A stretch of 63,997 bases of DNA, the filler included, from Reclinomonas americana ATCC 50394 (taxonomy: Eukaryota): the NCBI GenBank assembly GCA_048213135.1. It is 12 parts of 12 records of this genome, joined end to end, with 100 filler letters (N's around TTAATTAATTAA, not from the genome) between each part and the next. Parts side by side here need not be neighbours in the genome. Positions count along the whole stretch, not along the records: positions 1 to 15,780 come from AFZH01018099.1; positions 15,881 to 19,543 come from AFZH01018102.1; positions 19,644 to 24,647 come from AFZH01018103.1; positions 24,748 to 29,463 come from AFZH01018106.1; positions 29,564 to 34,025 come from AFZH01018107.1; positions 34,126 to 36,522 come from AFZH01018108.1; positions 36,623 to 38,906 come from AFZH01018109.1; positions 39,007 to 41,229 come from AFZH01018110.1; 4 more parts are not named here. The stretch is one strand, 5' to 3'. Shown in pieces: positions 1 through 63,830 of this stretch. Each line of letters opens with the position of its first letter. The first letter of the stretch is position 1. The notes beneath the pieces were generated by a model, which was not told the DNA's origin, made no database searches, and saw only the letters and a list, made by a program, of their open reading frames with translations. The translations under genes were made by a program, and so were the position numbers.

Positions 1-138
1 GCGCACGCACGTAAACGACAAACAAAGAGAGATGTACACAACAACACAGTGACAAACACACACACGCGCGTGTGTATGTGTGTTTGCGTGCGCGATGTTC
101 TCGACATGTGCAACTCCACACACACACTCGAACGCAAC

Positions 139-722
139 TGGTTCATCAACGAGGTCTTGCCGACACTACACGCGGAAGCCACCAACGTAGACGAGGAGGA
201 GGAGCGCGCACAAACAAACACACACACACAATGCGTTGTTGTGAGAACCGACATGACGCGATGTACACACACCCACACTCCGCCGTCCACTTGCCCGCAC
301 TCACCCCGAGTCACTGCGCACATGGACAAGCACGCACACACACACCGGAAAGTGAGAAGACGAAAAAAACATCACGCGCGCACGAAAAGTGAGTCGGGGC
401 TCAAGCGAGATGTTCTACACTTCTGCACACACACACTCTCACACACAAAAGCCACTCACCCCAGAATGATGATCTTCAGCAGCACTGCGCTCATGCAAAC
501 ACAAAAGGTAAGTTTGAAAAGTTATTATCAGCAGGGGTCAGTGCCAAACACGAGGCAAGAATAGCAAGAACCGAGCAAAGAAATAGCAAAGAGTGCAACA
601 AAAAAAGTGTCAGCAAAGAAAACAAGGAAAAACACTCGAGCGCAGACGAAACACATGTGCAGAGAGCGAGAGAGTGCGAGAGTTGGAGCAGCAAAGAACA
701 AACCCTTTTGTCGCGACGCCAT
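139..722 (-). CDS. RAB7: Rab7 small GTPase, 5' part (continues off window)
   Basis: Exons 704-722, 460-484, 305-313 and 139-165 splice to [27 protein letters not shown], the Rab7 N-terminus and P-loop. Confidence 0.9.
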
Positions 723-795
723 TTCTCCTCAGTTTTTTGTAATGCGTGTGAGTGATGCATGACAAACGAGGACAATGACGTCACTTTTATTTCAC

Positions 796-2933
796 ATGGA
801 CGACGAGGCAACGCGACCGCCACTGCCTCCGCGCTTTCGGCAATGGCAGGTGCTTGTCGTGGTCTTGCTGTACATTGGATACGCAACGTTGCGTTTCTCT
901 TTTGTGTGTGTGTGTGTGTGTGCTCTTGCATCAAAGTGACTCACAGAGAATGCAGAATGAGTTTCGCGCGCGGATCGGTGTTTGTGCTGCTGCCGACCAT
1001 GTACGATGATCCATCGATTCAAGTGCGTTGTGGATTGCGGGAGAAGATGCAGTGTGGGTGCTGATAAGTAGTTGTGCATCTGCAGCCATTTGGGTTGACG
1101 GAGGCTGGTCGGATGCTTGCTGCCGGCAATGCGGGTGTGCTCACGGGCAAGATCCTACTCGGCTTTGTCTCTGATTGCACCGGTGGCAAGGTCTGTGTGA
1201 GTGCATCTGTGCGCGCGGGATTGCTCTCATGATGAGATGTGCCAGTTTGCCACCATGACGAGTGTCGTCGGGCCGTGTCTGGCCATTCTGCTGTTTGGCT
1301 TGTCGCCGTCGCTGCCGCTGTTTGTGATCGCATGGCTGGCGTTCCGCATGTGCTCGGCGGCTGGGTGGCCGGGCCTGGCCAAGCACACACAGGCGTGGAT
1401 CTTTCCCTCGAGCTACGGCAAGGTGTGGGGACTCTATTCGACGTCGTCGCGGCTGGGCGCGGTGCTGTCGGGTGTTGGCGTTGGCGCGCTGTTGTATGCG
1501 TTTGGATTGGGGTGGCGGACTGTTGCGTACGTGTTCCTGTGGAGTGGCATGTATGTGCCTGCTCGGCTCACCTTCGAATTTCCACCCCCCCCTTTGCAGT
1601 TGTGCTTTCTCGCCTCGGCGATGCTGGCAGTGGTCTCTGTCGTCTTGTTCCTTTTTCTGCGAGACAGGCCGGAGAAGGCCGGCTTTGTTCCGTCGCCTGT
1701 GGCAGAGGCACGGCTCGCAGAGGAGGCACGGCTTGGTGCTGGTGGTGGTGGTGGTGGTGGTGGCGGCACCGATCAGCAGGAAGTGGAGATGCAGACGGTC
1801 GGTGTGCTGGCCAGAGACGAACTGCAGCAGGCTGACGAGAGCAGCGATGTCTCCACGACGCCCACCGGTTCCAAGTCGCCGTCCGACGCACAGCCTCACA
1901 GTCGGTGGGACGCCTTTTGCGAGAGCAAGGTGGTGCGCTTTGCCAAGGAGCCGCGATTCTGGTTGATGGGTACGATCGATCGATCGCGTTAGTGAGTGGG
2001 CGGGTGGATGGATGGATGAGAAGAATGACTGCGTGCGTGCAGGTTTCTTCATGGCGGCCTGCACCATTGTCTTTGAGTTTGAATCGGTGTGTCTGTTTGG
2101 TGATTGGTTGTGTGCATGAATGCGATTGTTGCTTACACCGCAGCGTTGTCGTCGAGAGCAGTACATTGCTTCGTATCTTGTTGGTGCGTTGGTGTGGCCT
2201 GATACTCGTCGCTTGTCGCTGTTTCGCTCACGTGGATGCGCGCAGCCAATTTCGATGTCGACAAGCCAGCCGCGGCCACATATGCCGCCGGTGCGTCGTC
2301 CATGCTGACACCCTTCGTTCTGTGCATCCTCCTCATTGTTACATCGGTGCAGCGTTTCCGGCGGGCGCCGGTGCCTCGGTGCTGCTCATCGGCTTCATCA
2401 TGGATCGTCTGTCGCAGCGCGGCGGCTACATCTTGATCACCATCAACATGGTGTTCAACTGTCTCGTCTCGGCGTGCCTGTGGGCCTTCCCGGTCTCCAC
2501 CGCATTTGTCGTCGTTCTCATCTTCCTGTACGGCTTCTCTGTGGGTGAGTGCGTGAGGGTGGAGTTGTGCTTGCACGCCTCCCCTCCACCAACTCACGAA
2601 TGCCACAGCGGCGCCCTACTACATTGCCATGAGTGTGTACTCGTGCCAAGCGATACCCACTGATGTCGGTGCCTTGGTCGGCTTGCTCGACGCGGTACGT
2701 GGGGTTCCCTAACCGCCCCCCTCTTGTCCCCTTCTTGATCGTATTCATTTCGTTGGCAGTTCGGTTACGGTGCCGCCATGATTTTCGATGTGTTCGGCGG
2801 CGAGCTGGCCGACACGCACGGCTTTGGCGTGCTCTTCCTCGTGTTCCTCACCTCCGGTATCGTGTCGTCGGTGATGCTGGGCTCGTTCTACGTGCTCGAC
2901 TATCGCGCTCGGAATCGTCGCCCTCACAGCTGA
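796..2933 (+). CDS. MFS sugar-phosphate/Pi antiporter, SLC37/GlpT (OPA) family, multi-exon
   Basis: Spliced motifs LYIGYATMSFARGS, GKILLGFVSDCTGGK, GWPGLAKHTQAWIFPSSYGKVWG, GLGWRT, GFIMDRL and VGLLDAFGY; many hydrophobic helices; stop TGA at 2931-2933. Confidence 0.85.
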
Positions 2934-2946
2934 GGCCAACTGCTGC

Positions 2947-5900
2947 TTAGCGGCGCGTCACTGCTGTTGCCGTTGACGCCGCTGCCGTAGCGGTTGCCGC
3001 TGGCGTTGCCGCCGTCGTCGTCGTCGTCGTGGTTGTGGTTGTCGTTATCGCCGTGGCCGACGGACGCCTGCCACCTGCGGCAGTGTCAATAGCGCCACTG
3101 CTGCTGCGACGCGCACTGCGCGAGACGCCCTCGAAGATGAACTTGGCCATCAGCGGCAGATGATCCGAGGCCACACGGCGACTCGGCCACACGACAACCT
3201 CGTCTTTCTCCACCGCACGGAACGTGTCGAGAACGCCGGCCACTCGCAGACCGCAATTACGTGCAAACAGAATGTAGCTGCGCATGCGCGAGTGTGAGAA
3301 ACAGGAGCTCTTCTGGGTGGGAGCAAGGCCGGCACGCTGCCGCAACTCGATGCAGCCGGCAAACGATTCAGCGCGATGCGTCACAGCAAGTTCGTGCCCG
3401 CCCAACATGTGCTTGTATGCGCTCTCGAAATGCAAGTCGTGGCGGCTGCTGATGGCAAGCGGCGAAGTGGAGCCCGGCACTTCTGCGGCCTCACTGAACG
3501 ACACAACCACCACGTCAGCAACACACTTCTACGAGACGAATCATGTTCGGCCACTCACCGAAACACGGGATCGCTGCTTGACAGATGGCCACCCACCAGG
3601 TACCGATAGCCGGGCGAGTCTGGCAGCAGATTGAAATCGCCGGCCAGTATCAACGGCTTGTCGCTCATTTGGCACGCCTCGCGGAACTCTACAATGTGAC
3701 GAACCAAAGCCACCAGCTGCAGGGAGTGGCTTTCAGTTGCCACGGCCGACTCACAGTCAACAGGACGCAGGTGCAGAGCAACTCAACTTGTCGCAACTGA
3801 ATGGCAGGATACCGGCCGCGCTGTCCGCTAGTCAGTTGCGCGCAGCACACCATCACCGCCTGCGCTGACTGAATGTGTCGCAGCACAGCAGTCACCACCA
3901 CGTTGGTGTGCCCGGTGGAGATGTCGCGCGCCACTCGCGGGTCGTCTGTCAGCCCTGCCACACCGTCGGCGAGAGCAAACTCGCGCACATCAACGAGTTT
4001 GAAGACCTGCCTCACGCGACAGGAGTCGTCAGCCACTCAATGAAAATGTGCACTGTAAAGACGACGCAACTTGTGGATTCCACAGGAGCGAGCAGCCGAG
4101 GTTGGGCCGACCCGGCAGAAGCACCTTCCGATTGCGTCCACGTCTGCGCACATACACACCACCGGCAAGCACGCCACCGTCGACGCTGCCACGTGCTAGC
4201 TCCTCCGTCAGCTGCGCAACGTGATTGTCTTCGGCCACGTCGTGGTCCTCGTAGCCTTGCACCTCCTGCAGGCATAGAATGTCGGGGCGGCGGATGGCGA
4301 TCTGGCGACACGACGTGCTCAGCAGAAGGAGTGCAACGAGACAACGAGACGCGTGCTCCTACCTCGGTGATGCTGTTCGTCGAGTGGAACAAAGGAGAAA
4401 TAAATACTGTCAGTAGCAGTGGCGATGACAGCAACGAGAGCAGAGACGGACGGACGCACATGCCAGCACGCCGCACGTTCCAGTCGAGCACTTGTTCCGG
4501 GTTGGGCACGTGTGGATACAACTCCTGCACAGCGTCAGCAAGCCTCACATGTGCGCGCACACGGTGGAGCACAACAGACCTTGATGGCGCGCATGTCGGC
4601 CAAAATGTTCCACGACATGACCGAGAAGTACACTGCATGATGCAAGAGGCCACGGTTATGCAAATGCACTAGCAACAACAGATTCGACACAACCCCACCA
4701 GCATCCTTTGGCACATCCAGTTCATCGATAAACTGCACGAGAGTTGAGAACAGCGTGCGAGTGGGGAGTGCGTCAAGCAGCGCAACTTTTCGCAGTTCCG
4801 GCAGCGCCTTGCGTCGACAGACGCGCATGGCCGACTTGCGCGAGTCCTTGAAAACTTGCAGCACGCGCGAGCGTTGCAGCGCCGTAGACAGCGTGTCGAG
4901 TGGGTCTGTTCCAACTTGTCAGCGCCACTCCAGCACATTGCATTATGTTAAGCACACGCACCTGGATAGTTACTGAGCCACTCTTTCAGTGGATACAGCT
5001 TGAGCAGATCACGCAGCTTGATGCTGCCGTCGCTTTCTCGCAGAATCGACAGCAGTTGCTGTGCGCAGCAGTCAGATGAAAGCCTTATGCATGCATTCAT
5101 CTATCCCCCGCCCCCAACGACGTACCGCATTGGAGAGGAGGAACGACTCGTCGAACCACGACTGGACTTGCGAGCGCAGTCGACGAAGCAGCTCGTCGTG
5201 CGACCACTTGCCAGGATCGTCAATGCCCTCGCCTGCACCGCCGGCGGCACTCGCAAGGCTGCCGGCCTGTGGACTCATGATCTGCAGCACGAAGAGAAGG
5301 TCGTTCAGTCGGTGCACGAGCGAGCATCTAATTTCATCCCACTGTGTCCACTCACAACTCCACTGAACGCCGGACTCATGACGGGCGACATGAGTGGTGA
5401 CATGGATCCGTCGCGCAGCACAATCGCCTTTCCGTTTGGCGTCAGTCGGACACACACCTACGCAAACAGAGGAAGATGAGATTTGGCGAAGCGCGCCGTC
5501 GCACGACAGTCGCGACAGACCGCCGACAAGTCGCCCTTGATCACGGAGCGGATGGTGGAGGCCGTGACGGGAGTCTTTGTCATCGACTTGAAGGGCCACA
5601 TGTGCGGCAACTCCTCCACCGGGATCTCCTTCCCGCTGCTGCATTCGAGCAGTTGCGGATTCACGTGGATCCACTCGGGCGAGAACATGCGATTGAGTGC
5701 ACGGCGCACGAAATCCTGCGTGTTGGTGCGCCCAATGAACACCGCGCCACGTCCACGCTGTCGCACGCTGATGGTGACCAGTGGCGAGGCTGCAATTCAG
5801 CACCACGCACGTGAGACGATGGAGAGCACAGTACGAGTGGCGAAGTGACAGCGGATGGAAGACAGAGAGCAGAATGAGTCATGATCTGTACCTGTGGCCG

Positions 5901-6988
5901 CCGCGCGCACGTGGTCCTCGTGCCGTGCCTCGGGTTCACGTCGCAGCAAGTGACGCACGCGTGAGAGCTGGAGAAAGTCGGCGAGCGGCACCGACTTGTC
6001 GGAAAAGTTGTACTTTTCGCACAGCTCCCGCAGCACCGGAAAGTGCGTCAGACCGCGATCACTGAACCACACTCCCAGCATGAGCTCCAGGTGCTGCAAC
6101 AGCGGGCGCGCCTTCATGTACTGCGGTTGATCAGCACACAGACAGACCCGCGATCCACGTTTATCCTGCGCGCAAGGAGAGTTGTGAGACAAGTCCGCAA
6201 AGCAACACCAAGCACAGACGCAACGGCCTTTTCGAGGGCCTCCGCCACCACCTCCACAGGCGAGCGGCGTGGAAAGTAGCGCTGACACAGCGCCGAGAGT
6301 ACCGGGTGCTCGGAAACAAACAAGCGCAGCTCGACTCGCCCGTCGGGACTGTGCGCCATGGCATCGGCCACTGCCGTGCTGTTGCCGCGTCCATCCTGCA
6401 GATCGGCGAGCACTGGAGAAGGGGGGTGAGACGGCACATGGCGCAGGTGTGGACTGGCGCGCACGGGCGCAACTGTCGTCCAGGCGGGCGGTGATCTGAT
6501 CGGCCACACGACGACCGCGCACACTCGGCGACTGCTTGGTGCCGACCGGCTGCACAAACTCCACCGTGTAGAGCGGGAAGCGCTCCAGTGCCTCGCCAAT
6601 GTCGTACACAGTGACGCCCTGTGCTCACAACGCACATGAGGACGAGGGAGATAGAGGGGCGAGGGGAGGGGAGAACGCAACAGCCGCCAGTCGCGGCAGC
6701 AGCAACTGCACAGCGATATTCTCGCCCTTCTTGTTCACCAGCACTGACAAGTCGGCACCCTTGCCGGTGTCCTCAGGCAGCTGCTCGAAGAGGCGTTCGT
6801 ACACGGCACCCACATCGGCGGCCAGTTGTCGCAGAACAGCGGGCTGACACATGGGAGTGTGAGGGGGAGTGAGGGGAGAGAGAAAGATGGGGCAGTGGTG
6901 TGCGCACCGGTAGTCCAGTGCCACCGTCCAGCATGCTGCGTCGACGAGCGCTGGCGCTGTTGCCACCGCCCCCGCAACAGGCGCCCAT
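2947..6988 (-). CDS. Multi-La-motif + CCR4/Angel/PDE12-type EEP protein, paralog A, starts MGACC
   Basis: EEP motifs SWNILA, PDILCLQEVQ, LAGDFN, CIDYILF (after splicing) and ASDHLPL. La-like units include LRSQVQSWFDESFLLSN...LSTALQRSRVLQV...VCRRKALPE. The start codon at 6988 is inferred. Confidence 0.75.
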
Positions 6989-7106
6989 GGTAGCTAAGCT
7001 AAGCAGCGAGATAGGCCGAGATATCCACGGTCGGTTGATTGGCGATCTGTGGCGAACCCTTGTGTAAACGCGAACGAGGAGAGAGTCGGGAAGCTGCATC
7101 ATCGTG

Positions 7107-7385
7107 ATGGCTTGTCGCGCTGCTGAGCGCGTGTTCAACATCGTCCGCAGCATCCCGCGCACCACTTTGTCGCGAGAAGAGCTTCTCTCTGAGCTGAAGA
7201 CTCAACGCGAAGAGTTGGCGACACTCTGCGCCGAAGAGACTCGACGTGGACTGGCCGACGCGCAGAGCCGCCTGAATGCCATTCGAGAGCGAGAGCGATC
7301 GAAATCTGATGATCATGATCCCGTTGCGGCCTCCGGATCCACGCCCACTCCGTCTCAGACTGGCACCGGTGCCACGTGTGAGTGA
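7107..7385 (+). CDS. Possible small intronless coiled-coil protein
   Basis: Short ORF with helical, charged composition (REELLSELKTQREELATL), divergent from the 6988 start. No family recognised. Confidence 0.3.
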   Translation: MACRAAERVFNIVRSIPRTTLSREELLSELKTQREELATLCAEETRRGLADAQSRLNAIRERERSKSDDHDPVAASGSTPTPSQTGTGATCE

Positions 7386-7937
7386 CGAAAAGGACCCTCT
7401 GGCCCGTGGTTAGCGCCTCGACGTTTGCGCCTTCGACCGCAGGCAGCAGCATCCGCAGTATTTCTGGCAGAGCGCGCGCGGATTTCAGTCCAGGCTGCAG
7501 CGCGAAGTGTTGGTACATTGGTGCATAATGAGCGTGAATCCAGGTGGCTAGAGTTAGTAAACTAAGACGGTCCTCGTGTGAGAACAACCAATGTCGAGAG
7601 CAAAACACGGACAGAAACCAATTTCGATTTCTGCTGGTTTTCACGTGTCCGCAGTTTTCGGTGGCGATGTGCTCGATTTCCCAGCGTCCTTGGTCAGCTA
7701 AACCTGGCCGGTGTGCAGACCTTAAACTTTCCGGTCCATAATTGCACCGAGGACGTGCTCGCTTTTCATCTTCTCGCAGACAGCACTTGCAAAAGCAAAG
7801 GGAATCTACAAACATCGATATCCGTGGTTGAAAAATGGTAATAAAAGACAGCTGTCGCTGAATGAGTGTAACATACAGTTGTTACACTCCACAATTGCTT
7901 CATTCAACATGCACATGCACGCTTCCGTGCACGGCAC

Positions 7938-47843: not shown

Positions 47844-47886
<43 letters not shown>

Positions 47887-47895
47887 ATTCGCTCG

Positions 47896-51806: not shown

Positions 51807-54161
51807 TCATGACGGATTTGTGGAGGCGGTGGGCGCGGGTGTGGGTGCGGGTCGACGGCTGAGATACTTGGCGTGTTGTGGCGCCATGACCGCACAGTCA
51901 ATGTTGAGCAGGGCACAGGCGCACGAGGTGGCGCGCTCCAGTACACCACGCTTGAGTGCACATGTCTCCCACACGCCTGCTGGTTTCTCGACAGCAATCA
52001 GTTCGCACATGCAAGGAAGGCGAGGTGAGGTCACTCGTTCAAACGAACCAGACTCGCGCATGTCGCCAACGGTGCCTGCCACCACATCAATGCCAGTCCA
52101 CCACTCCCCGCGCCGGTGCGCGACTCGGAGGCCTTGCAGGGTGCTGCATGAAGAGTGCAGCGTCAGTGGTCGGCGCAGAGAAAGGAATTGTAGTTGTCAT
52201 GTTGCTCACCTCGGCCAATCCATGCCGGCCGACTCGGCAAGCAGACGCACGTGGTCTTCGAGAGCCGCAACAAACACATTCACCGCCCCATCTGCGACCT
52301 CGGAACGCTGCAGGAGTGGCGAGTGAGAACAGACACGGACTGACTGTCTCTTTGTCAACGCGAACCAGTGCATCGTCGCGACACAATCGCGTCACCAGTG
52401 CCATTTCTGCACTGCCACCACCAGTGATGCACTGCAGACACGGAGCCTGTCAACATTGAACGGGATCACAGTTCGTGCGATGGCAGGTGCAAGAGTACCT
52501 GAAAACCACCGGTGCGGCGCTCAAACATGACCAGCGACAGCGCATCATGCATGGCACGACGGACCTCGGCAGCAGCGCTGTCGGTGGGAGCGCAGAGCAC
52601 CAGTGTCGAAAACACTGGTGCGCGGCCGTCGCTGACCTGCTCCACCTCCACGCGCCACTGCGACTCCTCAACACGCATCACTCGGATACACACCGGCGTC
52701 AGCTTGGACTCGAGACGATCGCCGGCGTCGGTGAGTGCACTCTGTGTTTTGAAAATGAAAGACAGTTGCCATCCGCGACAAGTGCCGTGCGCGCCAGACC
52801 TCGGTGAGTATCACACCCGCGGTGCACAGGAGTGCCAGCCGATCCAGCTCGGCATGGGACACACCGCCAAACACGTGAATGCCGTGCGCCTCGAACACTG
52901 CCTGCGTCTCAGCGGTGACCACCTGCGCCACACATGACGACCGATCAGCAACTCCTCCCCGCACCCACAGGCTAAGCAAGTGCCGCAACAGAGCCCACAA
53001 AAGCCGCAGCGACACCGAGTTCCGCCAGCCGTGCACACACGCTACGCAGTGCTTCTGTTCTCGCGCCACTGCCAAGGAAGGAACGACGGTGGGCATCAGC
53101 ATCTTATGATCATACATGCATGCGGATCCCCAACCTGTCGGGCGCACTGGCACTCTCCCATATGTGCCGCTCTGATCGCGCCGACGGCGCCGCGATGGAG
53201 GCACTCAGGCTTCGAATGACAACAACGTGACTCGGTTCGGTGGCCACGCTGCTGGCACGTGTCAGCGCGATGATCGTGGTATCTTGCTTTTTGACCGAGA
53301 TAAACGCAACGCCACCACGGCTGCGCCTGCCTTCACGCGGTCGATGCAAACGCCGTGAAACACACGCGACTCGTCCACCTGCCCGCCCACACGCTGCGCA
53401 AGAAACACACAATCACTGTCGTCCACATCGTCCAGCTCGAGAAGCGGGCACACCGCCTCGCACAGCAATGCCGCCAGATGCACACGCCACGGCGCAGCGA
53501 CCTTGGTGGCCAGACACGACATGGCCAGTCGCTCGACCGCCGATCGTGCACCAGCCTTTGAAGAAGACGAGGAAGCAGTGGCTGGAGTCAGTGTCTCGCA
53601 GGCACACAGTCGACGACACAGTTCCCACAGCGATGCAATCACTCGTGCCGGGCGCCACGAGTCGCGGCGGATGAGCTCCTTCCCGCCCATGCACAGTGCA
53701 ATGGCCAACAACGCCACCGAGGTTGTTCCGTCACCCACTGCATGCATGCATCGTCAGCCAGATTGCAATGAGTGTGCCTCCCCAGCGATCGATGCACACC
53801 TTCGCGTTCCTGTGCGAGCGCTGCCTCGCGTACGAGTTGCGATGCCGGGTGGCGCAGATCGATAGAACGCAACACTGTCGCACCGTCGCTGGTGAACACC
53901 ACTGATCCGAGTGGATCTGAGAGTGACAGAACGAGGATTAGCTGCAGCCTCCTTCTATGTGTGTATGTGTGTGCATGCAAGAGACAACGTGCCGGTAAGT
54001 GCTTTGAGCATGGCGTGCGGGCCGAGGAGCGTCCACAGCACTTGTCGCACGCGTCGCAACTCTCGCTCCATCCACTCATCGAGATCGGCCACTGCAGCAC
54101 CCTCGCTGGTGGTGCCGACCGCGGGGAGGAGTAGGCGCGTGTCGGGGTGCACGAGCTCCAT
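51807..54161 (-). CDS. Chaperonin-like BBS protein (BBS10/MKKS/BBS12 group)
   Basis: LLGPHAMLK, TSDGATVL..HP, VGDGTTS, GGQVDESRVFHG, TLVLCAPT, GGGSAEM, LLNID. Too divergent to be a CCT subunit; subfamily not resolved. Confidence 0.7.
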
Positions 54162-54220
54162 TGTCGACGCAGCGCGGATTAACTTTGTTTTTCGTTGAAT
54201 TCATTGACGGTTCGTTTTCT

Positions 54221-56188
54221 TCACGACGATGGTTGGGCGGCGGTGCTGCGCGGGAGACGAATGTCGGTGGGCGAGCGGACAGCAACACCTCGCTGCTGGC
54301 AGGCGGCAGTCAGGCGGCGTTTGATTACGGTTAGATCACGCTCGCCGACCGCCGCTGCGTCTTCGACATCGCTGCCACTCACGGCCACCACCAGCAGAGG
54401 ACCGCTCGAGCGCGTGAGAGAGACCTGCAGGTCGGCAGCCGATGGCGGCTCGTCCTCCACTCCTCCTATCGATCGCACACATACACACGCGCAGCGTCAG
54501 TGCCATCAGCATGGGGGAATGGTTGCGGCCAAGCAAGACAACGCAACCCTCGGACAAGATGACCACGGCGGCGCCACAGTCGCGCTCGTGCAAATGGTGA
54601 GGCGGAACAATGTCGACGTCGGCGGGCACATTCGGAGAGGTGACGAGCTCTTGCGCCACGCAGTCCTCGTGTACCATCACCGCCACCTCCGTGGCCGCAT
54701 GCACCTCGAGCAGACGCTCAATGCACTGTTCCACCGTCACGACGACTGCCTCACGGATTGTCAGCAAATCGACGCACATCTCCAGCCAAGGACGTACACA
54801 CAAGGCACTCAACGATCGGAGCGATTCGTGTCAATCAGCCACACACTGCTGGTGCCCTCTGGCCGGTCGGCATCGTCCTCGGCATCAGCAGCGGGCGGCG
54901 GAGCGGGAATCTCCTCAAACACCTCGTGAAGCACGTGAGCTGTGCTCGTCGTCAGCATCGATGAAGAAGAAGAAGTCAGCTAGGGGGGACTGCGACACGC
55001 AGACAACCGCACCGACTGTAGGATCCAGCCGATACTGCTGCTGCAGGTGACATTGCGAGGCGACACCAGACAAGCACCAGTCCAGCACACTCTCCGACAG
55101 AGCCGACACCAGATCGATCTGCGACTGCGGTATGCCACTCGACGGTACCAGTCGCGGTCGGGGACCTTGCACAGAACCAGCGCACACAAATTGCACCACT
55201 GTTTGTTCGCAGAGGAAGGAGATTAGTGAGCTCGAGTGAATGGTGTGAAAGAACACCACACCGAACGTACCATCGTGTCCGGCAGAAAGCTGCCAGCAAT
55301 TATTGCGCAAGTTGAGCATGGCGTGCGAGAATGACTACATCGACACAGAGAGTTCTACGCACCGGTACCATGCCCAGCGGCACGCTGCATTGCGAGGCGC
55401 CGTCGAGAATCACACGGTACACGGTGCCGGACTGAGGCAGTTGACGCGCCATGTGTCCGAGGTCGGCCAGAGTGACAAAGAAGATGCGAGCGGTGGACAG
55501 CGCACGGTCCAGCTGATCGTCATGACGACGCTGCGCGAGGATAACAGATAATGTCAGCTACTCCTATCAACAGAAAGACCACCGATCTCGCGTCACACCT
55601 GTCGCAGCGCTCCGGTCGACAACACACGACCTCCGCGGTAGAGAGACTCTGCACCAATGAATAAAAAAAGTAACACTGAGTCACCGTGCGACTGCGAGTG
55701 CTCTACGAATGGGGACTGATCACGTACCAAAGTACGACATGTGGGCGTCGGAGAGTGTGTCGTGCACGAGGCGCACCACATGCAGCTTGGAGGCAGCATC
55801 GGGAGCCTCTTTGAAGAACATGCTCGCCAAGTTGTCCACAGTGGCATTGGTCGGGCCAGTGACAATGACGCGGTCGTGATGGAACGCCCAGGTGAACAGC
55901 GACAGGATTGCCGTCAGGACCGACGACTTGCCTGGCGATACACACGCACACGCCTGTGAGTGAGCAACACTTGCGCTTGCACTTCTTCTCTGGCACACGC
56001 ACCTGTGCCTGGCGGTCCAGTGATGGCGACCAGGTTGTGCATCAGGGCCGCCTCCAACGCACCCAGCTGCGACTCATCAAACACGGCTTGATCGATCGAA
56101 CTCGCAGACGCCGGCTCCACCACGGCCGACGACTCGCCAAGTGCTACAGCGTCCAGAGAACCAGTGAGTGCGGGGTCACCCACAGCAC

Positions 56189-56246
<58 letters not shown>

Positions 56247-59204
56247 GACGCAACGAGTAGTTCGGAAGCGCGTTAACAGGCGCCACGGAACATCGGCCGA
56301 GTCAATGGCGAGCGACAGCAGCTCACGCAACGGCGTATCGGCTGCTAGTCCACTGGATCCGCTGACGTGGAGTCGGAGGCGCCTTTCGGCCGCCTCACGC
56401 GCCAACGTGCTCAATGATTTGGTCTTTGTTGGAGAAGCGAGGGGCACGTTAACACAAGGCAATGAACACCCCTTGAGGGGGAAAGACGCTGACACTAGCT
56501 CACCTGGCCACTGATAATGTTGCGAGTGTTGGTTGGCAGGTCGAGGTGCAGAATGTTGCGAATGGCGAACAGCATGGCCACCGTCTCGTGACGGTCCGTG
56601 TTGATCAAGCGACGCTCGTGAACCGGGTAGCGGCCACAGCGAGCGGCCACATTTGCCGCCTGCGTGTTTCCACACAGACAGTCAGTCAGCAACAATGACA
56701 TCAACGCGGTGGAATGGACTCGACGCACCTCTGGGGGCATTCCGTTTCCAATGTCAATGTGCAACTCGAGTGTGCGCAGACTGGCCACGTATCGACACAA
56801 ATGCTGTGCAGTGGCGGGTGAGCGACATGGGATGAGAAACAAGGGTGATTGTTGGCGCTGCTGCCTGTCACCTTGAAGCACACGTTGCGCGCCACGGTGG
56901 TCAGTCGCGCCTCACTGTCGCGGAACACAACATCACGCGGCAGTCCACGGCGAACAAACTCCTCGTGCACCCACGTGAGCGGCTGCACGTCCTCCGAGGC
57001 GTACACAATGAGATCGCGCGACAGTGGTCGGTGTTGCCAGAGATTGCTGCGGTGCACAAGATGGTTGAGGGAGAGCGAGAGATGACCGACGACTGCGCTG
57101 CACACACCGGTCCTGATTCATCATGCTGCGCACTTGGCTTTTGAGGTCGGTCGCCGACTTGAACCCGAGCTGAATCAACAGACTCGTGAAGCCAATCTCC
57201 CGAGAGGGCTTGTGCTGCGAGTCGCCACATCTCTCAGCACTTCAAGCAACATCGCACTGCGCGTGTGAATGGATGGTCACGACGCACCTGTCGCTGCATC
57301 AAGTGCTGCCACGCCACCTGCGTGTCGAACACGGATCGCAGAACAATTCTGTACTGCTCCAGCAGTGCACCTGCGTCAGCACGGCAGTCGTGAATGACCT
57401 GTGGGGGGTCACATGTGCGCGCAGTCAGCTTGTATGCACTCACAACACGAGCTCATGAACACTGACCTTGGTGTAGGCCGGACTCTCCAACAGCCACCGC
57501 AGAGTGCTGGTGGGCTCGGACAGCATGCGCGGCTCAGTGGAAATGTCAAACAGGTACACGTTGCCACGCGGATCCGACAGTTGCAGCAGACAGAGTGCGC
57601 CGCTGGTCGTGGAAATAGTATACCAGCAAGAAATCAACACCGATGCATGATTGTGCACACCAGATGCATGTGACGACTCACGTGTACGACAGATTGACTC
57701 CCTCACAGTCCCACCCGAGCACGTCGTACTGCTGCAGATGCGAAGCCACAATCTCACATCGCGCGTATGAGTCCACCAGGAACAGCTTCCCGTAGATCCC
57801 TGACATTGGTTGCGACAGGTTGTCCACCAGCATCTTCTCCCACTCCTGCCGATCGTCCTCCGGCTGTACACAAATAAAATGAGTGTCGATAGCACTGCCA
57901 CCAACACTGGCATCAAAGCACAACGCACTCTCGGTGGCGACGACAGAGACGATACGACTGAAGCGGCTGTCATCATGCCGGAATTCAACGGCGCCGGCAC
58001 ACTGTGAGGTCGCGACTGTGCCGACACGCCACCACCACCACCACCGCTGCCGCCATTGACGCCGCGCGGCGAATGCGACAGTGGAGAGGGACCGCCGCCA
58101 GAGCCACCACCAGCGCCAGCACCACCGCTGCCCGGCGGCGAGCCCATGGGATTGAACGAGTACATTGGTGGCGACGGTTGCGGCGGCGGCCTGCCCATCA
58201 TCATGCCCGGCGGTCCAGCTCCTGCGGGATAGTACGGCGCTGGCAGATGCATGGGCTGGCGCGAGGGCGACGGCATACCACCGGGCATGCCGTACGGCAT
58301 GTGACCGAAGGAGCCGGGGGGTGAGAACGCCATGGGCACGTACAGCGGCTGCCCCGGATTGTAGCCGGGAAACCAGAGTGGCGAGCCGACCGACGGTCGC
58401 ATGGAGGAGGCCCCCGGCGACGACGGCATATGCATCGGCATGGATGGCGAATACACAAAGTCAGTCGGCGTACGCGTGGCCGGTGAACCCACAGCCGGAC
58501 CCCGCGATGACGGCGACTGCTGCTGAGTCGGCATCGGAAGCTGCGACGGTGCACGCGAATACACTTGTCGCGGCTGCTGCTGCTGCTGCTGCTGTGGCTG
58601 CGACGGAGGCGCACGCTGCTCCTGCGGCTGCTTCACCACCTGCAGCGACACAGCAGCTGGTGGAGGCGACGCTGGCGGCAGCGGCGACGGAGAAGCCGCA
58701 GGAGGAGGAGGAGACGCCGGCGGTCCGGGCGACGTTGGCGGCCGCGGACTCACCGACACCATCCACGCCGGCGTCCGTCCCTGCGACCACACCGACTGCA
58801 CCTTACTGCACGTGCACACACATCATAAGCCATCACCACCACCACACGGAGCTCATCGCGCACACACAGTGAGTCGCACGCACCCACGCGCTGGCACCGG
58901 CTGCACCGGCTCATCCTCTCCATTCTCACCATCCTCATCAGCATCATCGTCCCCGCCACTGCCCGCGGTTGCAGCAGCTGCTGCTGCAGCAGTTGCTGCT
59001 ACGCTCGCCGCATGTGCACTGGCATGCGCAGCAGCACGCAGGTTGCGGCGACGCGATCGTCGGCGACCTGCGCAAAAAGAGGGAAGCCATCGTCAGTCAC
59101 ATTCTCGCATCTCTCTCTCTCTCTCTCTGTCTCACTTGCTGTTGTCTGTGACACTACGTGTGTGCTTGTGGGTGAGAGAGAGAGAGAGCCCTGACGCAAC
59201 CCAT
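54221..59204 (-). CDS. Pro-rich N-terminus + EXD1/Egalitarian-like DEDDy 3'-5' exonuclease + degenerate UPF1-like SF1 helicase
   Basis: Exonuclease: GWDCEGVNL, LCLLQL, YLFDI, KVIHDCRAD, FDTQ, WQHRPL..YASEDV. Helicase: FDESQ, GPPGTGKS, PTNATVDN, ILDGASQ, QYRL, VSLTRS. Confidence 0.75.
56192..56244. repeat. (CA)n microsatellite inside an intron. Similar tracts near 900, 38655, 43550, 45325 and 47845.
   Basis: Direct dinucleotide runs. Confidence 0.95.
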
Positions 59205-59434
59205 ATGTGCTGTCTGCGAGTCTGCAGGTGCGCGCGCGCGTCAGCAAAACGCACACGCACACACAGACACAGACAGGCTTTCTCCTCTCGTCACGCTCTG
59301 CTCACGCGCGCTGTGCACACACACAGAGACAGACAGAGACGGAGAGAGAGAGAGAGACAGGCGCACAAACGCAGACAAAAGTCGATGAGAGAATTTCACC
59401 TGCTGTCGGATTGATTGGTGTGGTGTGTGTTGAG

Positions 59435-62310
59435 ATGGCGAGTGCGAGCGGAAATCGCACTCTGGTGCCCTCCTTTGACTTGCACCTCAATCATAACATT
59501 CTTGAGGGACTCGCCGTCGTTGGCAAATGTTACGCACACAAGCAAACACTAAACAAACTGACTGATTGTCACGACAAAACGCACACACACTCTGTCTCTC
59601 TGTCTTGCACTGTCACTCGCAGCGTGCGTGTGTGTTGTGTGCTCTCTCTCTCACACACACACACCTCTTTTCTCTGTGTGTTGTGTTGGATCTCTCTCTG
59701 ATCACTCACATGTCAAGTTTGTTTTTTCGCGCGCAGATGATGGAACTCACCCGATCCTCACTTGCGCCACCTCCGGCTGCAAGGTGTTCATGCACAACCC
59801 GCATGCGCAACCCGACAAGACCACTTTCCTCACCAATGCCAGTTGAGTCTGTGCGAGAGAGAGACAACTTGAAAGACACACTCTCTCAATCACTCTTCCT
59901 CCTTCTCCTCCTTCTTCTCCTCCTCCATCTTCTTGTCTTGTTCTTCTTCTTCTTCTTCTTCTTCTTCTCCTCCTCCTCCTCCTCTTCCTCCTCCCTTCTC
60001 CCTTCTCCCTTGCCCTCGTCTCACTCTTGCGCCACAGTTCAATACCTCAACATCAACAGACCTGTGACGGCAATGGCTGTCGGCGCACCCAACGTGAACT
60101 CGTCACACGATGCACTCTTTGTGGGCATGGGCACCAACTTGATGGCGTTGCGTGGTCTTCCCCCCCCACACACTCTCCATTGTCGTCGCCAAGTGGTGCT
60201 CAAACGTCTTGCCCGCAGGTACGACGTGGAGCGCAATCAGGATTTGTTCTATCGCGATGTGCAGGATGGCGTCGGCGGCCTGGTGTTTGGACGCATTGGC
60301 AATCGGCCGATTCCGCTCATCATTGCCGGCGGCAACTGCTCGGTGCAGGGGTTCGACTACTCCGGCAACGAGTCGTACTGGACGGTGACGGGCGACAATG
60401 CCTCGGCGCTGACGCTGATTGACGTGAATCGCGATGGCGAGAACGAGCTGGTCGTCGGCACCGACGACTTTGTCATTCGTATCTTCCAGAACGACGATGT
60501 GGTGGCGGAGACGGTACGCGAATGACCCCCGACATTAGCGTTGTGCACACACGTCGTCGCCTGAAGAAAAGAATGCTGTACAGGTGGAAACCGATCGCGT
60601 GGTGGATCTGTGCTCCATCCAGGGACCACGATACGGCTACGCGCTGGCCAACGGCACCGTGGGTATCTACGAGGCCGATCACCGCGTGTGGCGTGTGAAA
60701 TCCAAGAGCAGTGTGCTGTCGGTGGTCGGCTTTGACCTCGACGGCGATGGCGTGCCGGAGATCATCTCCGGCTGGAAGAGCGGCAAGTTCGAAGTGCGCA
60801 ACCAGGGCACTGGCGAAGTGGTCTACAAGGATCACTTTTCACGAGCCGTCGTCAAAGTGCTCACTGCCGACTACCGAATGGACGGCAACTTTGCCGTCAT
60901 TTGCTGCACCTCCGAGGGAGAGAGTTGCGTGGCGACAGTTGCCGCAGTGATATCGAAGTGCGGCCGCTCAACTCTGCTATTATTGTGTTTCAGTCAAGGG
61001 TTTCCTGCCGGCCACCGAGGAGCAGGCTGCCGAGCTCATGGACAATGCACAAGAAGAGGAGCAGCTCAAGGCTCTCAACCAGCACAAGCAGGTGCGCTTA
61101 TTATGCAGAGGGACTGGAGACGACTCACCTGCTCACCTTCCTCTCTCTCTCTCTGTGTGTGCGTGTGCAGGAACTCATGTACGAGTTGCGTTCGTACGAG
61201 GAGAATCTGCGGAAACTCAAGGCCGGCGAGAGGAGTGCTGGCCTGGTCCCGCATGACACTCACGTCGGCTGTGCTCTCGTCGTTGCGTGTGTGCTGGTGG
61301 TTACTGTTACTTCCTTTCCCTATCTCACCATCCGTGTGCACACAGGGCGATCCATCGAGACGCATTGTCGAGGCAGTGATTGAGAGCACTCCAGGCACGG
61401 TGATCAAGGCAGCCGTGTTGTTTGCGGAGGGATTGTTTACGGGCGAGAGCTTCTTCTCTTGCCCGCGGGAGCCGACGAACCAGCTGCGCATTCCCATCAA
61501 GCCGGAGCGTGATGTGGGATGCACCATGTTTATTCAGGCCATGGTCGGCACACGCATGGGAACGCAGTTCCACGTGTTTGAGTTGGCCTTGCTGGTTCCC
61601 AAATTCTGTGTGTACGTGTTGGAGCCGCGCGAGGCCGTCAAGAGGCCACGCTCGTCGGTTGCATTCAGGCTCACACAGCGGAATCAACGAGTTTCGTGTG
61701 TTGTCGCCCGCCGTCTACTCCCTTTGAACGAGTGACACGCTCAACCAATTGTTGCAGATTGGCTTGTGGTTGGAGCGCAGCTTTGGTGTGCCTGCTGCTT
61801 CACTCCCGGACTCAGACGCAATCGACATTTCGCTGCGATCGATGCGCGACGGCACCGTCGTCGTCATGCAGTTCACCACCGACCGCTTGACCATATACGT
61901 GGATCGCATGGATGTGGCCGCCGATATTGTGCAAGACATGTGTGAGGCGTTTGAGATTGATGAGCTGGAGAGCGAAGTCGACTTTCCCGAGGAAATGGAG
62001 CGCTTCCGCACTCTGCTGCAGGAGGTCTGTGTCTGATACATATTTGTGCCAGGTACGGCATTCTTTCTGCTTGCTGACTCGTGTTCGATGGCAGGTGGAC
62101 GAGTTCAACGCGGCACGCCTGAAGATGAATGCCGAAATGGCCGACAGCTCACAACTCATCAAGACGCTCGTCATCAAGGCCGAAGACGCACGCATTCTCG
62201 GCGACATGAAGCTGATGAAGCAGATGTACGGCGACTTGCACGACCTCAACCGCGAACTCATGGGCGAGTACCAGAAGCGAGCCAACAATCATGCCGAGCT
62301 GCTGCGCCAG
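59435..62310 (+). CDS. BBS2: Bardet-Biedl syndrome 2 protein (BBSome core), truncated by gap
   Basis: GKYDGTHP, YDVERNQDLFY, GGNCSVQGFD, WTVTGDN, YALANGTVGIY, FDLDGDGVPE, DYRMDG, KAEDARILGD. Confidence 0.95.
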
Positions 62311-62410
62311 NNNNNNNNNNNNNNNNNNNNNNNNNNNNNNNNNNNNNNNNNNNNTTAATTAATTAANNNNNNNNNNNNNNNNNNNNNNNNNNNNNNNNNN
62401 NNNNNNNNNN

Positions 62411-63830
62411 AGGGGAGGAGGAGACAAGGAAAAGAGAGAAGCAGGGAAAAGGTAGACGGAAGAGGAGAACTGCTGTACCGTACATCCGCCTTGGCCGTAC
62501 AGCAGAGAGAGAGAGAGAGAGAGATGGAACGCACCAGCGTCTGGTCAGCGTAATACGGCGCGACAGGACCGGTGGTCAGCTGTCGATCGAGTCCGCCCAT
62601 GAAGCCAGTGTGCTCGGCCAGATTGATCTGCGTGGCATGCAAAGAGAAACAAAGGCATCAGATCATGTCTCACAACATCAGAGGCTGCGCATGCGTGTCA
62701 CCTTCCAGCCGAGCGAGAACAAAAACTCCTGGTAGTCCGCCGAACCGCCCTCGTTCATCAAAATCTCGGACTGGTTCTCCTGCCCGCGGCCCACATACAC
62801 CACACCAATCTTCCACGTCTCACGCCTGCGGCCTGTTAAGAGGAATGCACGAGCAAGTGACATGAGAAAAAAGGAAAACGCAACTCAGCCAGTCGATCCA
62901 GACTCTTCAATGTGCGCTCCAAACGGTCGCCGGCCTCCAGCGTCCGCGTGTGCGAAAACTCGGTGGCGGCCGTGAGACCAACATGCGAGCTGAGCAACCG
63001 TCCAATCTGCCACTTGCACGTCGCCGTGTCCTTTTCGGGTGGTACAGGTGGCGTCGCCGGACTGCACCGAGCAACACACAAGGTGAGAGCGAGGGGCACA
63101 GTCGGCACTGAAAGTCACGGGTGACGCACGCTTGTGTTGTGCTCGGCATGCGAATGCCATCGCGCTCGCCCGACTGCTGCGCACGGATCACGTCGAGGAA
63201 CTTGTCGGGCGCCCAGGCGATGCGCGAACTCATGCACGGTTTTCTGCCACCACCACAATCAACAGTGAGTGGAGAAAATGGTGCAGCACAACAGTGAGCA
63301 AGAGAAAGACTCACCCCGACAGCTCAGCCTCCAGGAGATCCGGTGCTGAGTTGGCCGAGTGTGCCGTCAAGAACGCTGCGTCTCTTCTCGCGCACTCTTC
63401 GATAAAGCTCTCCGGGCACGGAACCCACGTGCGAGAGGTCGCTGTGGGGCATGTCAGGCCTCCGACGCAAGATCAACCGAGGCACGACGACGACGCAACG
63501 AGCAGGATGGTGGAAACGCAGATTCCACGCGAAACGACCGGTGCCGTCGCGGAACACCAAGGTCAGCTCGCCCTTGTCTGGTCGATCAATGATCGACACC
63601 ACTGTTTGGTGCCGGTACGTGAATCGGCGCAGGCGCGTCTCATCTGCAGTCATGATTGAGTAAGTGCTGTCGTTGATGACGACCTTCCGCAGCATCACAC
63701 TCACCGACACCAATGTCGGCCACCAGCGTCGAGAGATTCACGGGCCCCTCTTCGGAGGGGAAGTGGCCGAGTTTGTTCATCACGTTGTACAGCAGGGAGC
63801 GGCCGGCGTCCTGCGCAAATCACAGCGGTG
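62411..63830 (-). CDS. RALGAPA: Ral GTPase-activating protein alpha-like (Rap-GAP domain), internal fragment
   Basis: RDGTGRFAW, LKSLD..RETWKIGVVYV..GQE, GGSADYQEFL.SLGW, HTGFMGGL, PYYA. Confidence 0.8.

What the first reader, a model, noticed from the sequence alone, without database searches (positions are those of the whole stretch)
138..62884. Abundant +1-shifted 5' splice sites (GT-T-GCG/GAG/ACG/TCG): a second donor class
Seen: in conserved genes where protein homology fixes the junctions, many introns start with the organism's normal donor motif plus one extra T, so the conserved G sits at +6 instead of +5. BBS2: 59529 T|GTTACG, 59842 A|GTTGAGT, 60147 C|GTTGCGT, 60924 A|GTTGCGT, 61282 C|GTTGCGT, 61691 A|GTTTCGT (6 of 9 introns). 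Hsp78: 48718, 49454, 49675, 49926, 50139, 51257 (6 of 14). PRMT1: 31773, 32421 (2 of 4). Further cases occur in Rab7 (138), SLC37 (888), PP1, the carboxypeptidase, both EEP genes and RalGAP (62884). Conserved residues (GKYDG, ILRGLKE, LDFEG) require cleavage at GT, not at TT. Known: +1-shifted U1 pairing at GUUAAGU-type sites was described in humans by Roca and Krainer as a rare class. Inference: here it is a mainstream donor class, implying an altered U1 or U6 ACAGAGA register, a variant snRNA, or modified factors such as U1C, Prp8 or METTL16-dependent U6 m6A.
Basis: partly seen in the sequence, partly recalled or inferred. Interest (0 to 1): 0.9.

Follow-up and report, generated by a model that had tools for sequence, protein, structure and literature searches.

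The report
Second splice-donor class: GT plus extra T
In this intron-rich protist-like genome, roughly a third to a half of introns begin with GTTGCGT, which is the usual donor motif pushed one base downstream by an extra T; such a site is a rare oddity in humans but seems routine here.

Summary
GTTGCGT occurs 44 times against 16.9±4.3 in shuffles. Among all 7-mers it is the most sense-biased in gene regions, 36 sense to 3 antisense.

A spliced aligner with no donor model placed 26 junctions in BBS2, ClpB/Hsp78 and PRMT1. Fifteen start GTT, and 13 of those 15 have G at +6 against a background of 0.23. PP1 and Rab7 add one GTT donor each. A self-trained gene model gives 71 GTT donors among 193 GT donors.

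These introns match ordinary ones in length and branch motif, and they are not repeats. The GTT logo is the normal logo (G|GTGCGT) moved by one base. G at -1 is lost, only T serves as the extra base, and the GCG core sits at +3 or +4 and hardly ever further.

This fits one snRNA contact read in two registers, like the human +1 shifted U1 register, but as a major class. No RNA reads, genome or snRNA genes were available, so the mechanism is inferred. With a canonical U1 5' end the shifted duplex is predicted to be weak.

The parts
59529..59535 (+). BBS2 intron donor GTTACGC (GTT class)
   Evidence: 39 of 45 homologs place the junction here; slide 0 is clearly the best position, 76.4 against 71.4 or less
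59842..59848 (+). BBS2 donor GTTGAGT
   Evidence: 38/45 homologs
60147..60153 (+). BBS2 donor GTTGCGT
   Evidence: 44/45 homologs, with the GC donor 3 nt downstream allowed as an alternative
60924..60930 (+). BBS2 donor GTTGCGT
   Evidence: 44/45 homologs
61282..61288 (+). BBS2 donor GTTGCGT, weakly placed
   Evidence: 16/45 homologs, a plurality in a poorly conserved stretch; chosen by the self-trained gene model
61691..61697 (+). BBS2 donor GTTTCGT
   Evidence: 44/45 homologs
48718..48724 (+). ClpB/Hsp78 donor GTTGCAT (no G at +6)
   Evidence: 4 of 9 spanning homologs, a plurality
49297..49303 (+).
   Evidence: 11 of 26 spanning homologs, no rival above 1; slide 0 is best
49454..49460 (+). 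ClpB donor GTTGCGC
   Evidence: 8/26 spanning homologs, next alternative 2
49675..49681 (+). ClpB donor GTTGCGT, contested
   Evidence: 6/33 against 4 for GTGGATC at 49680
49926..49932 (+). ClpB donor GTTGCTT (no G at +6)
   Evidence: 10/38; 6 homologs read through and 2 chose GC at +3
50139..50145 (+). ClpB donor GTTGCGT, not fixed by homology
   Evidence: 2/40 spanning homologs, 10 read through; chosen by the self-trained gene model only
51257..51263 (+). ClpB donor GTTGCGA
   Evidence: 41/74 against 10 for the GC donor at 51260
31773..31779 (+). PRMT1 donor GTTGCGT (345-nt intron)
   Evidence: 26/40 homologs; 11 chose GC at +3 with the acceptor also moved by 3
32421..32427 (+). PRMT1 donor GTTGCGT, followed by a second TGCG (GTTGCGTTGCG)
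   Evidence: 22/40 homologs; an unnamed relative, P0278, aligns over its whole length (residues 3-349 of 349) without a gap at either GTT junction
32926..32932 (+). PP1 donor GTTTCGT
   Evidence: Read by eye: exon 1 (26 nt) joins EKLLEVRGSRPGKQ. The next three exons map contiguously on solved PP1 chains
132..138 (-). Rab7 donor GTTGCGT after ...VGKTSLMNQ
   Evidence: Read-through gives LRSS instead of the Rab7 continuation (that motif is recalled, not tested). The downstream exon lies outside the window
888..894 (+). MFS (SLC37-like) donor GTTGCGT
   Evidence: Gene model only; MFS_1 Pfam match on a neighbouring exon
62878..62884 (-). Rap/Ran-GAP-like gene donor GTTGCGT
   Evidence: Gene model only; weak Rap_GAP Pfam match on the next exon
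34735..34741 (-). S10 carboxypeptidase donor GTTGTGT
   Evidence: Flanking exons match Peptidase_S10 profile positions 112-143 and 145-176, end to end; gene model
60514..60519 (+). Comparator: normal donor acg|GTACGC in BBS2
   Evidence: 45/45 homologs
31499..31504 (+). Comparator: normal donor ctg|GTGCGT in PRMT1
   Evidence: 38/40 homologs
1..63997 (.). All 44 copies of GTTGCGT in the window
   Evidence: sorts them as 25 predicted donors, 7 'in exon' (one of these, 32421, is a homology-placed donor), 4 in introns, 5 outside scored genes (one is the Rab7 donor at 138) and 3 antisense.

Best explanation
These are ordinary U2-type GT-AG introns whose 5' splice sites come in two discrete registers. 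The recognised core is G-N-U-G-C-G-U. If N is G, the GU lies at core positions 2-3 and the site is the normal G|GUGCGU. If N is U, the only GU lies at positions 1-2, and cleavage falls one base further upstream relative to the core, giving |GUUGCGU.

The most likely reader of the core is the 5' end of U1 snRNA. It would pair the same way in both cases, so that in the GUU class it is shifted by +1 relative to the cleavage site: +1G faces C9, +3U faces A7, +6G faces C4 and +7U faces A3. The scissile bond is then set later, by the U6/U5/Prp8 stage, at the GU.

Shown here: the class exists, it is abundant, it shares length and branch signal with normal introns, and it has exactly the displaced logo.

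For: 1. Abundance and strand bias. GTTGCGT has 44 copies against 16.9+/-4.3 in shuffles. At 36 sense to 3 antisense it is the most asymmetric of the 1459 7-mers tested (p 3.6e-8). GGTGCGT follows at 25:2.

2. Junctions placed by homology without donor weights. Fifteen of 26 start GTT. PP1 and Rab7 add one each.

3. Displaced logo. The GTT class reads +4 G 62%, +5 C 70%, +6 G 73%, +7 T 61%. The normal class reads +3 G 70%, +4 C 43%, +5 G 71%, +6 T 57%.

4. Loss of G at -1. G is at -1 in 15/71 GTT donors against 73/122 normal donors (Fisher p 2e-7). In the homology set it is 1/15 against 10/11 (p 2e-5). A at -1 (34%; 8 of 15 in the homology set) mirrors A at -2 in normal sites (35%). This is expected if U1 C9 is taken by +1G and U10 faces -1.

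5. Only T serves as the extra base. Sense:antisense counts are GTAGCGT 2:1, GTCGCGT 6:5, GTGGCGT 17:6 and GTTGCGT 36:3.

6. Only two spacings. The first GCG sits at +3 in 39 predicted donors, at +4 in 36 and at +5 in 3. In the donor-blind parse the counts are 30, 15 and 3.

7. Same intron type. The branch-like motif CT[GC]A[CT] is found at -45..-8 in 66% (GTTGCG), 61% (other GTT) and 66% (normal) of introns, against 12% of exon windows. Median lengths are 67 and 68.5 nt. Only 2 trivial similarities occur among 229 introns.

8. Precedent. Shifted and +3-bulge U1 registers are proven in human cells (Tan et al. 2016, PMC4856993, passages read).
Against: - There is no RNA evidence, no snRNA gene and no whole genome.
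- Everything rests on one 64-kb window, which is itself 12 joined pieces.
- With the canonical U1 5' end (AUACUUACCUG, as printed in Tan et al. 2016), nearest-neighbour folding gives a mean of -2.4 kcal/mol for GTT donors against -5.6 for normal ones. The shifted register is also not the predicted optimum, because +5C mismatches. Either U1 here is not canonical or other factors carry the recognition.
- In all sense GTTGCGT copies, -1 is mostly C or T (15 C, 11 T, 7 A, 3 G). So G is depleted rather than A selected.
- The gene model is imperfect. It recovers 16 of 22 homology-placed introns, and 11 of 22 when donor-blind. Its 36 'GC' donors are probably mostly errors.
- The self-trained counts are partly self-reinforcing.
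- Homology fixes junctions only to within about 1-3 nt without the GT-AG rule.
Confidence: 0.58

Rival explanations
1. Bulge register. U1 pairs canonically with the exon end and +1/+2, one of the two U residues (+2 or +3) bulges out, and pairing resumes at +4. This is the human 'bulge +3 (or +2)' register.
For: The sequence GUU-GCGU cannot by itself tell bulge from shift. The register is proven in human cells (Tan et al. 2016, Fig. 1C legend). It keeps the strong +1G:C8 and +2U:A7 pairs.
Against: In this register -1 would still face C9, yet G at -1 falls to 21% (6% for GTTGCG) from 60%. Bulged A, C or G are not enriched.
Confidence: 0.15
2. A dedicated or non-canonical snRNA. Either the U1 5' end here is complementary to UGCGU, or a second U1 (perhaps with a matching U6) reads GUUGCGU in a normal register.
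For: C is strongly preferred where canonical U1 has a pseudouridine: +4 C 43% and +5 C 70%. Predicted pairing with canonical U1 is weak. The GTT class has the higher information content.
Against: The U1 5' end is near-invariant among eukaryotes (general knowledge, not tested here). A second U1 in the normal register would still favour G at -1, and that preference is lost. No snRNA was found in the window.
Confidence: 0.13
3. The UGCGU core is bound by a protein or other factor just inside the intron, and U1 pairing is minor.
For: Predicted U1 duplexes are weak. TGCGT alone is sense-biased, 183:91.
Against: Only two adjacent spacings occur and the count drops sharply beyond +4. The loss of G at -1 tracks the register.
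Confidence: 0.08
4. These are GC-AG introns that start 3 nt further on (GTT|GCGT), with GTT belonging to the exon.
For: The 3-nt shift keeps the reading frame. It took 11 of 40 votes at 31773 and 10 of 74 at 51257. The donor-blind parse often chose GCGT... donors.
Against: GC donors were allowed in the aligner, yet GT won 44/45 at both 60147 and 60924, 26:11 at 31773 and 41:10 at 51257. GTTACG, GTTGAG and GTTTCG donors have no GC there. It would also require every such exon to end in GTT in all three phases; the phases of GTT introns are 29, 26 and 16.
Confidence: 0.03
5. Chance, compositional bias or mis-set junctions, with no second class at all.
For: There is only one window, no transcripts, and an imperfect gene model.
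Against: 0 of 100 shuffles reach the count. Strand bias is 36:3. Four unrelated conserved genes show the sites. The branch motif is present as in normal introns.
Confidence: 0.03

Closest known systems
Human +1 shifted-register 5' splice sites (Roca and Krainer 2009). The paper is not held; it is known here through Tan et al. 2016, PMC4856993 (passages read), and the review PMC9311317 (passages read)
   Same: A GU is followed by U at +3. The rest of the consensus is displaced by one base, with G at +6 and U at +7. Cleavage is at the GU, not where the U1 register would point.
   Different: In humans these sites are rare exceptions: all validated noncanonical registers together are 1.5% of 201,541 sites (Tan et al. 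2016). Here they are about a third to a half of donors. The displaced core is UGCGU, not UAAGU, so with a canonical U1 the helix would be broken at +5.
Human 'bulge +3 (or +2)' register (Roca et al. 2012). The paper is not held; it is cited in Tan et al. 2016, Fig. 1C legend
   Same: There is one extra nucleotide after GU relative to the consensus.
   Different: G at -1 is depleted here and only T is tolerated as the extra base. Both points speak against a simple bulge.
Non-canonical U6 register at the STAT3 tandem donor (Kramarek et al. 2024, PMC11162779, abstract read)
   Same: It shows that U1 position need not set the cleavage site and that U6:5'ss pairing can be flexible. The GTT class needs exactly this.
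   Different: That is a single human exon studied by mutagenesis. Here it would be a genome-wide habit, untested.
GC-AG and U12-type introns
   Same: They are minority donor classes that coexist with GT-AG in the same genes.
   Different: Cleavage here is at GT. There is no ATATCC-type donor. The branch motif is the ordinary CTRAY kind, shared with normal introns.
Lineage-wide non-canonical splice sites in the tunicate Fritillaria borealis (PMC13326754, passages read)
   Same: A whole genome has departed from the standard 5' splice-site pattern, and the question of the U1 register is open.
   Different: In that genome the GT/AG dinucleotides themselves are lost. Here GT-AG is kept and only the register changes.

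Membership tests
+1 shifted-register 5' splice sites | GU at +1/+2, U at +3, and the remaining consensus displaced by one base (G at +6, U at +7) | tested here: met
   Logos. G at +6 in 13/15 homology-placed and 52/71 modelled GTT donors, against a background of 0.228
+1 shifted-register 5' splice sites | Cleavage at the GU, one base upstream of where the U1 register points | tested here: met
   GT junctions win the homolog votes. The +1 slide is worse in 8 of 15, gives the identical mRNA in 3, is about equal in 4, and is never clearly better. No RNA proof
+1 shifted-register 5' splice sites | Exon-side preferences move with the register (-1 no longer faces C9) | tested here: met
   G at -1 in 15/71 against 73/122 (p 2e-7). 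Homology set 1/15 against 10/11. A at -1 is only moderately enriched
+1 shifted-register 5' splice sites | U1 snRNA shown to pair in the shifted register (suppressor U1, mutational analysis) | not testable with these tools
   No U1 gene is available. The duplex predicted with canonical U1 is weak
Bulge +2/+3 register 5' splice sites | Canonical pairing of the exon end and +1/+2 is retained, so G is favoured at -1 | tested here: not met
   G at -1 is depleted: 2/35 for GTTGCG donors and 3/36 for all sense GTTGCGT copies
U2-type GT-AG spliceosomal introns | GT...AG ends and a YTRAY-like branch motif near the 3' end | tested here: met
   All aligner-placed junctions have AG acceptors. CT[GC]A[CT] is present in 61-66% of introns against 12% of exon windows
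GC-AG introns | Cleavage before GC | tested here: not met
   The GC alternative 3 nt downstream loses 1:44, 11:26 and 10:41
U12-type introns | Donor of the [AG]TATCCTT type and a TCCTTAAC-type branch site (motifs recalled) | tested here: not met
   Donor hexamer tables hold no such motif. The enriched branch-region words are CTGAC and CTCAC
Introner-like repeated introns | Introns form sequence families | tested here: not met
   2 short chance hits among 229 introns

The most novel reading that the evidence does not exclude
This lineage has re-tuned 5' splice-site recognition into a two-register code. A U1 with a non-canonical 5' end matched to UGCGU, or a second U1/U6 pair, would read G|GUGCGU and |GUUGCGU about equally well. 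That would make +3 U donors routine, and it would be the first eukaryote in which register slippage is a normal, selected mode of intron definition.
Probability: 0.2. Interest if true: 0.85.

Novelty: new variant of a known kind. Interest (0 to 1): 0.72.

Why it matters
Position +3 of the 5' splice site is a purine in nearly all studied eukaryotes (general knowledge). Noncanonical U1 registers are treated as rare human exceptions, 1.5% of sites in Tan et al. 2016. A genome in which a third to a half of introns use the displaced site would matter in three ways:
- It would be a natural experiment on how U1, U6 and Prp8 agree on the cleavage site when the pairing register and the GU disagree.
- It would show how much slack the active site allows between GU and the ACAGAGA helix.
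- Gene finders trained on one donor matrix will mis-set such junctions by 1-3 nt. My donor-blind parse often chose GCGT... donors, which are probably the GC site 3 nt downstream of these GT sites.

Tried and rejected
- RNA evidence: the look-up of sequencing runs listed no RNA holder (none was listed, which does not mean none exists).
- Whole genome: none is held, so U1 and U6 could not be sought.
- Rfam on the window: nothing at gathering thresholds. At E<=1 there was only a chance mir-297 hit on a TG repeat.
- Relatives: the one metagenome scan with a PRMT1 exon gave 80 loci, the best at 74% identity. None was a close relative and none was analysed further.
- Third homolog search, on an Arm-repeat exon: it found nothing, so that 17-intron gene rests on the model alone.
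- Donor-blind gene model: it recovers only 11 of 22 homology-placed introns. I therefore used it only for enrichment, not for exact counts.
- Duplex folding with canonical U1: it did not reproduce the shifted register.
- Sliding-junction test: it showed homology alone cannot fix junctions to the base.
- Literature: searches for GTTGCGT, GUUGCGU and GUUGCG as whole words, GTGCGT with intron and splice, 'shifted register' with 'splice site', and a mixed U1/protist query found no report of such a donor class. Subscription-journal papers are mostly not searched, and Roca 2009 and Roca 2012 are not held.
- Rejected readings: introner families, U12-type introns, GC-AG introns, and TT-start introns.

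Full report
WHAT THE WINDOW IS

The window is GC-rich, about 57%, and densely packed with genes that carry many short introns. It is not one contiguous stretch. It consists of 12 pieces of 1.6-15.8 kb joined by 44 N + TTAATTAATTAA + 44 N linkers, so adjacency across linkers means nothing.

Pfam and homology searches identify these genes:
- a truncated Rab7 (minus strand, 1-494) and an MFS/SLC37-like transporter;
- two genes with endonuclease/exonuclease/phosphatase domains and an Arm-repeat gene;
- PRMT1 and a truncated PP1;
- an S10 carboxypeptidase and a TPR gene;
- ClpB/Hsp78, a chaperonin-like gene and a helicase-like gene;
- BBS2 and a Rap/Ran-GAP-like fragment.

The organism is not identified. 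The best BBS2 match is 64% identical, and the best PRMT1-exon match is 85%, to an unnamed record.

CHECKING THE OBSERVATION

All cited positions carry the stated bases; 138 and 62884 are minus-strand sites.

To place junctions without assuming any donor motif, I wrote a protein-to-genome spliced aligner. It allows any GT or GC donor and any AG acceptor at equal cost.

BBS2, 45 homologs:
- Eight junctions are firm, with 38-45 votes each. Five of them start GTT: 59529 GTTACGC, 59842 GTTGAGT, 60147 and 60924 GTTGCGT, and 61691 GTTTCGT.
- A sixth GTT donor, 61282, is only a plurality (16/45).

PRMT1, 40 homologs:
- There are four junctions, and two start GTTGCGT: 31773 with 26 votes and 32421 with 22.

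ClpB/Hsp78:
- There are thirteen junctions, and seven start GTT.
- Five are reasonably supported: 48718, 49297, 49454, 49926 and 51257.
- One is contested (49675, 6 against 4).
- One is not fixed by homology (50139, 2 of 40).

PP1 and Rab7:
- PP1's first four exons give one more GTT donor (32926 GTTTCGT, read by eye) and three normal donors. Exons 2, 3 and 4 map end to end on solved PP1 chains.
- Rab7 shows GTGAGTG twice and GTTGCGT once, at 138.

Totals:
- Aligner-placed set: 15 of 26 junctions start GTT.
- Strict set, without the three weak aligner sites (61282, 49675, 50139) and adding only the two tool-confirmed PP1 junctions (33090 and 33357): 12 of 25.
- Counting everything, including sites read by eye: 17 of 33.

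IS IT MORE THAN CHANCE?

- GTTGCGT occurs 44 times against 16.9±4.3 in dinucleotide shuffles, and none of 100 shuffles reaches 44.
- I assigned gene strands from coding potential alone, using a small two-strand generalised HMM. I then ranked all 7-mers by sense/antisense asymmetry in 55 kb of genic sequence. GTTGCGT comes first at 36:3 (p 3.6e-8 among 1459 words tested). GGTGCGT, the normal donor with its preceding G, is the next splice-like word at 25:2.
- At the 808 sense-strand GTT sites not used as donors, G at the sixth base has frequency 0.228. It is 13/15 in the homology set (p 3e-7) and 52/71 in the model set.
Two cited sites do lack the G: 48718 is GTTGCA and 49926 is GTTGCT.

HOW COMMON IS THE CLASS?

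- The donor-blind HMM recovers only 11 of the 22 BBS2 and ClpB/Hsp78 introns placed by one best homolog per gene, so it serves for enrichment only. Even so, its top donor hexamers are GTGCGT (22) and GTTGCG (14) among 221 introns. GTT donors are 47 of its 158 GT donors.
- I then let the model learn a hexamer table from its own predictions, starting from a flat table. Recovery rises to 16 of 22. The parse gives GTTGCG 35, GTGCGT 29, GTGAGT 14 and GTTTCG 9 among 229 introns, with GTT donors 71 of 193 GT donors. One predicted intron overlaps a linker.
- These model counts are partly self-reinforcing. The 36 'GC' donors are probably mostly errors.
- A fair statement is one third to one half of donors.

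ARE THEY ORDINARY INTRONS?

Yes, by three measures:
- Median length is 67 nt against 68.5 nt.
- A branch-like CT[GC]A[CT] lies 8-45 nt from the 3' end in 66% of GTTGCG introns, 61% of other GTT introns and 66% of normal introns. It occurs in 12% of exon windows.
- The introns share no sequence beyond the signals: 2 trivial hits among 229. They are not a repeated element.

WHERE EXACTLY IS THE CUT?

A sliding test with no dinucleotide rule shows that protein homology fixes junctions only to within about 1-3 nt, for normal donors as much as for GTT donors.

Sliding by +1 would mean cleavage at G|TT, the place a canonical U1 register would indicate. Across the 15 GTT donors it is:
- worse in 8, including the conserved Y of GKYDG at 59529 and the L of GLKE at 49454;
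- identical in mRNA in 3;
- within 0.6 score units in 4.

The frame-neutral alternative is a GC donor 3 nt downstream. It was allowed in the aligner and lost 1:44, 1:44, 11:26 and 10:41. It also cannot apply to GTTACG, GTTGAG or GTTTCG.

MECHANISM

The GTT logo (+4 G 62%, +5 C 70%, +6 G 73%, +7 T 61%) is the normal logo (+3 G 70%, +4 C 43%, +5 G 71%, +6 T 57%) moved by one base. Three further observations bear on how the site is read.

1. The preference for G at -1 disappears.
   - G is at -1 in 60% of normal donors and 21% of GTT donors (Fisher p 2e-7), and in 2 of 35 GTTGCG donors.
   - In the homology set it is 10/11 against 1/15.
   - A at -1 (34%; 8 of 15 in the homology set) matches A at -2 of normal sites (35%).
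   - This is what a whole-helix shift predicts, with U1 C9 taken by +1G and U10 facing -1. It is the opposite of what a +3 bulge with canonical exon pairing predicts.

2. Only T is enriched as the extra base. Sense:antisense counts for GT-N-GCGT are A 2:1, C 6:5, G 17:6 and T 36:3. This fits +3U pairing with A7.

3. The GCG core sits at +3 (39 donors) or +4 (36) and almost never further (3 at +5). The donor-blind parse gives 30, 15 and 3. There are two discrete registers rather than a motif at a flexible distance.

In short, the recognised word is G-[G/T]-TGCGT, and the cut falls 5' of whichever GT is present. This works like the human +1 shifted register. That register and the +3 bulge register are documented in Tan et al. 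2016 (PMC4856993, passages read) and in the review PMC9311317 (passages read).

WHAT DOES NOT FIT

With the canonical U1 5' end, nearest-neighbour folding gives a mean of -2.4 kcal/mol for GTT donors against -5.6 for normal ones. It does not choose the shifted register, because C at +5 breaks the helix.

The strong C at that position (70%) is unexplained by canonical U1. The possibilities are that U1 here differs, that a second snRNA exists, or that proteins and U6 carry more of the recognition.

U6 would also have to accept one extra base between the GU and its ACA pairing. A flexible U6 register has been proposed for one human exon (PMC11162779, abstract read).

None of this could be tested. 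No snRNA gene lies in the window, no genome is held and no RNA run was listed.

NOVELTY AND VERDICT

Full-text searches found no report of GTTGCGT-type donors as a class, within a library that lacks most subscription papers.

In humans, all validated noncanonical registers together make up 1.5% of 5' splice sites (Tan et al. 2016). Here the displaced register is a major mode.

I rate this a new variant of a known kind. The shifted-U1 mechanism is the best reading but unproven (about 0.58). Interest is 0.72.

Noticed in passing
window 15781-15880, 19544-19643, 24648-24747, 29464-29563, 34026-34125, 36523-36622, 38907-39006, 41230-41329, 45526-45625, 48168-48267, 62311-62410: Each gap is 44 N + TTAATTAATTAA + 44 N, a spacer with stops in all six frames. 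The window is therefore 12 separate pieces (1.6-15.8 kb) strung together. Genes are cut at the joints (PP1 stops at 34025, for example), and gene order across the joints is not real.
   Followed up: yes
window 305-313, minus strand: There is a 9-nt micro-exon in Rab7 that supplies the D and S codons and parts of the flanking G codons of the P-loop ([13 protein letters not shown]). Both the micro-exon and the preceding exon are followed by a GTGAGTG donor.
   Followed up: partly
window 15928-19543, plus strand: The Arm-repeat gene is modelled with 17 introns and exons of 123-129 nt, about one repeat per exon. Nine of its modelled donors start GTT. A homolog search with one exon found nothing.
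   Followed up: partly
whole window: Intron lengths are very tight: the 5th to 95th percentiles are 56-90 nt and the median is 68. A few long exceptions exist (196 and 208 nt in BBS2, 345 nt in PRMT1), rich in CT, CTT or CA repeats.
   Followed up: partly
window 31216 and 31568, plus strand: Two firmly placed PRMT1 introns end in TAG rather than the usual CAG.
   Followed up: no
whole window, donor +4 (normal) and +5 (GTT class): C is strongly preferred (43% and 70%) at the position that would face a pseudouridine in a canonical U1. Canonical pairing does not explain this.
   Followed up: partly
window 32421-32431, plus strand: The PRMT1 donor reads GTTGCGTTGCG, so the TGCG core is present twice in tandem.
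   Followed up: no
whole window, all sense GTTGCGT copies: G just before GTTGCGT is rare (3 of 36), while C and T are common (15 and 11). This looks like avoidance of GG-TT rather than selection for A.
   Followed up: partly
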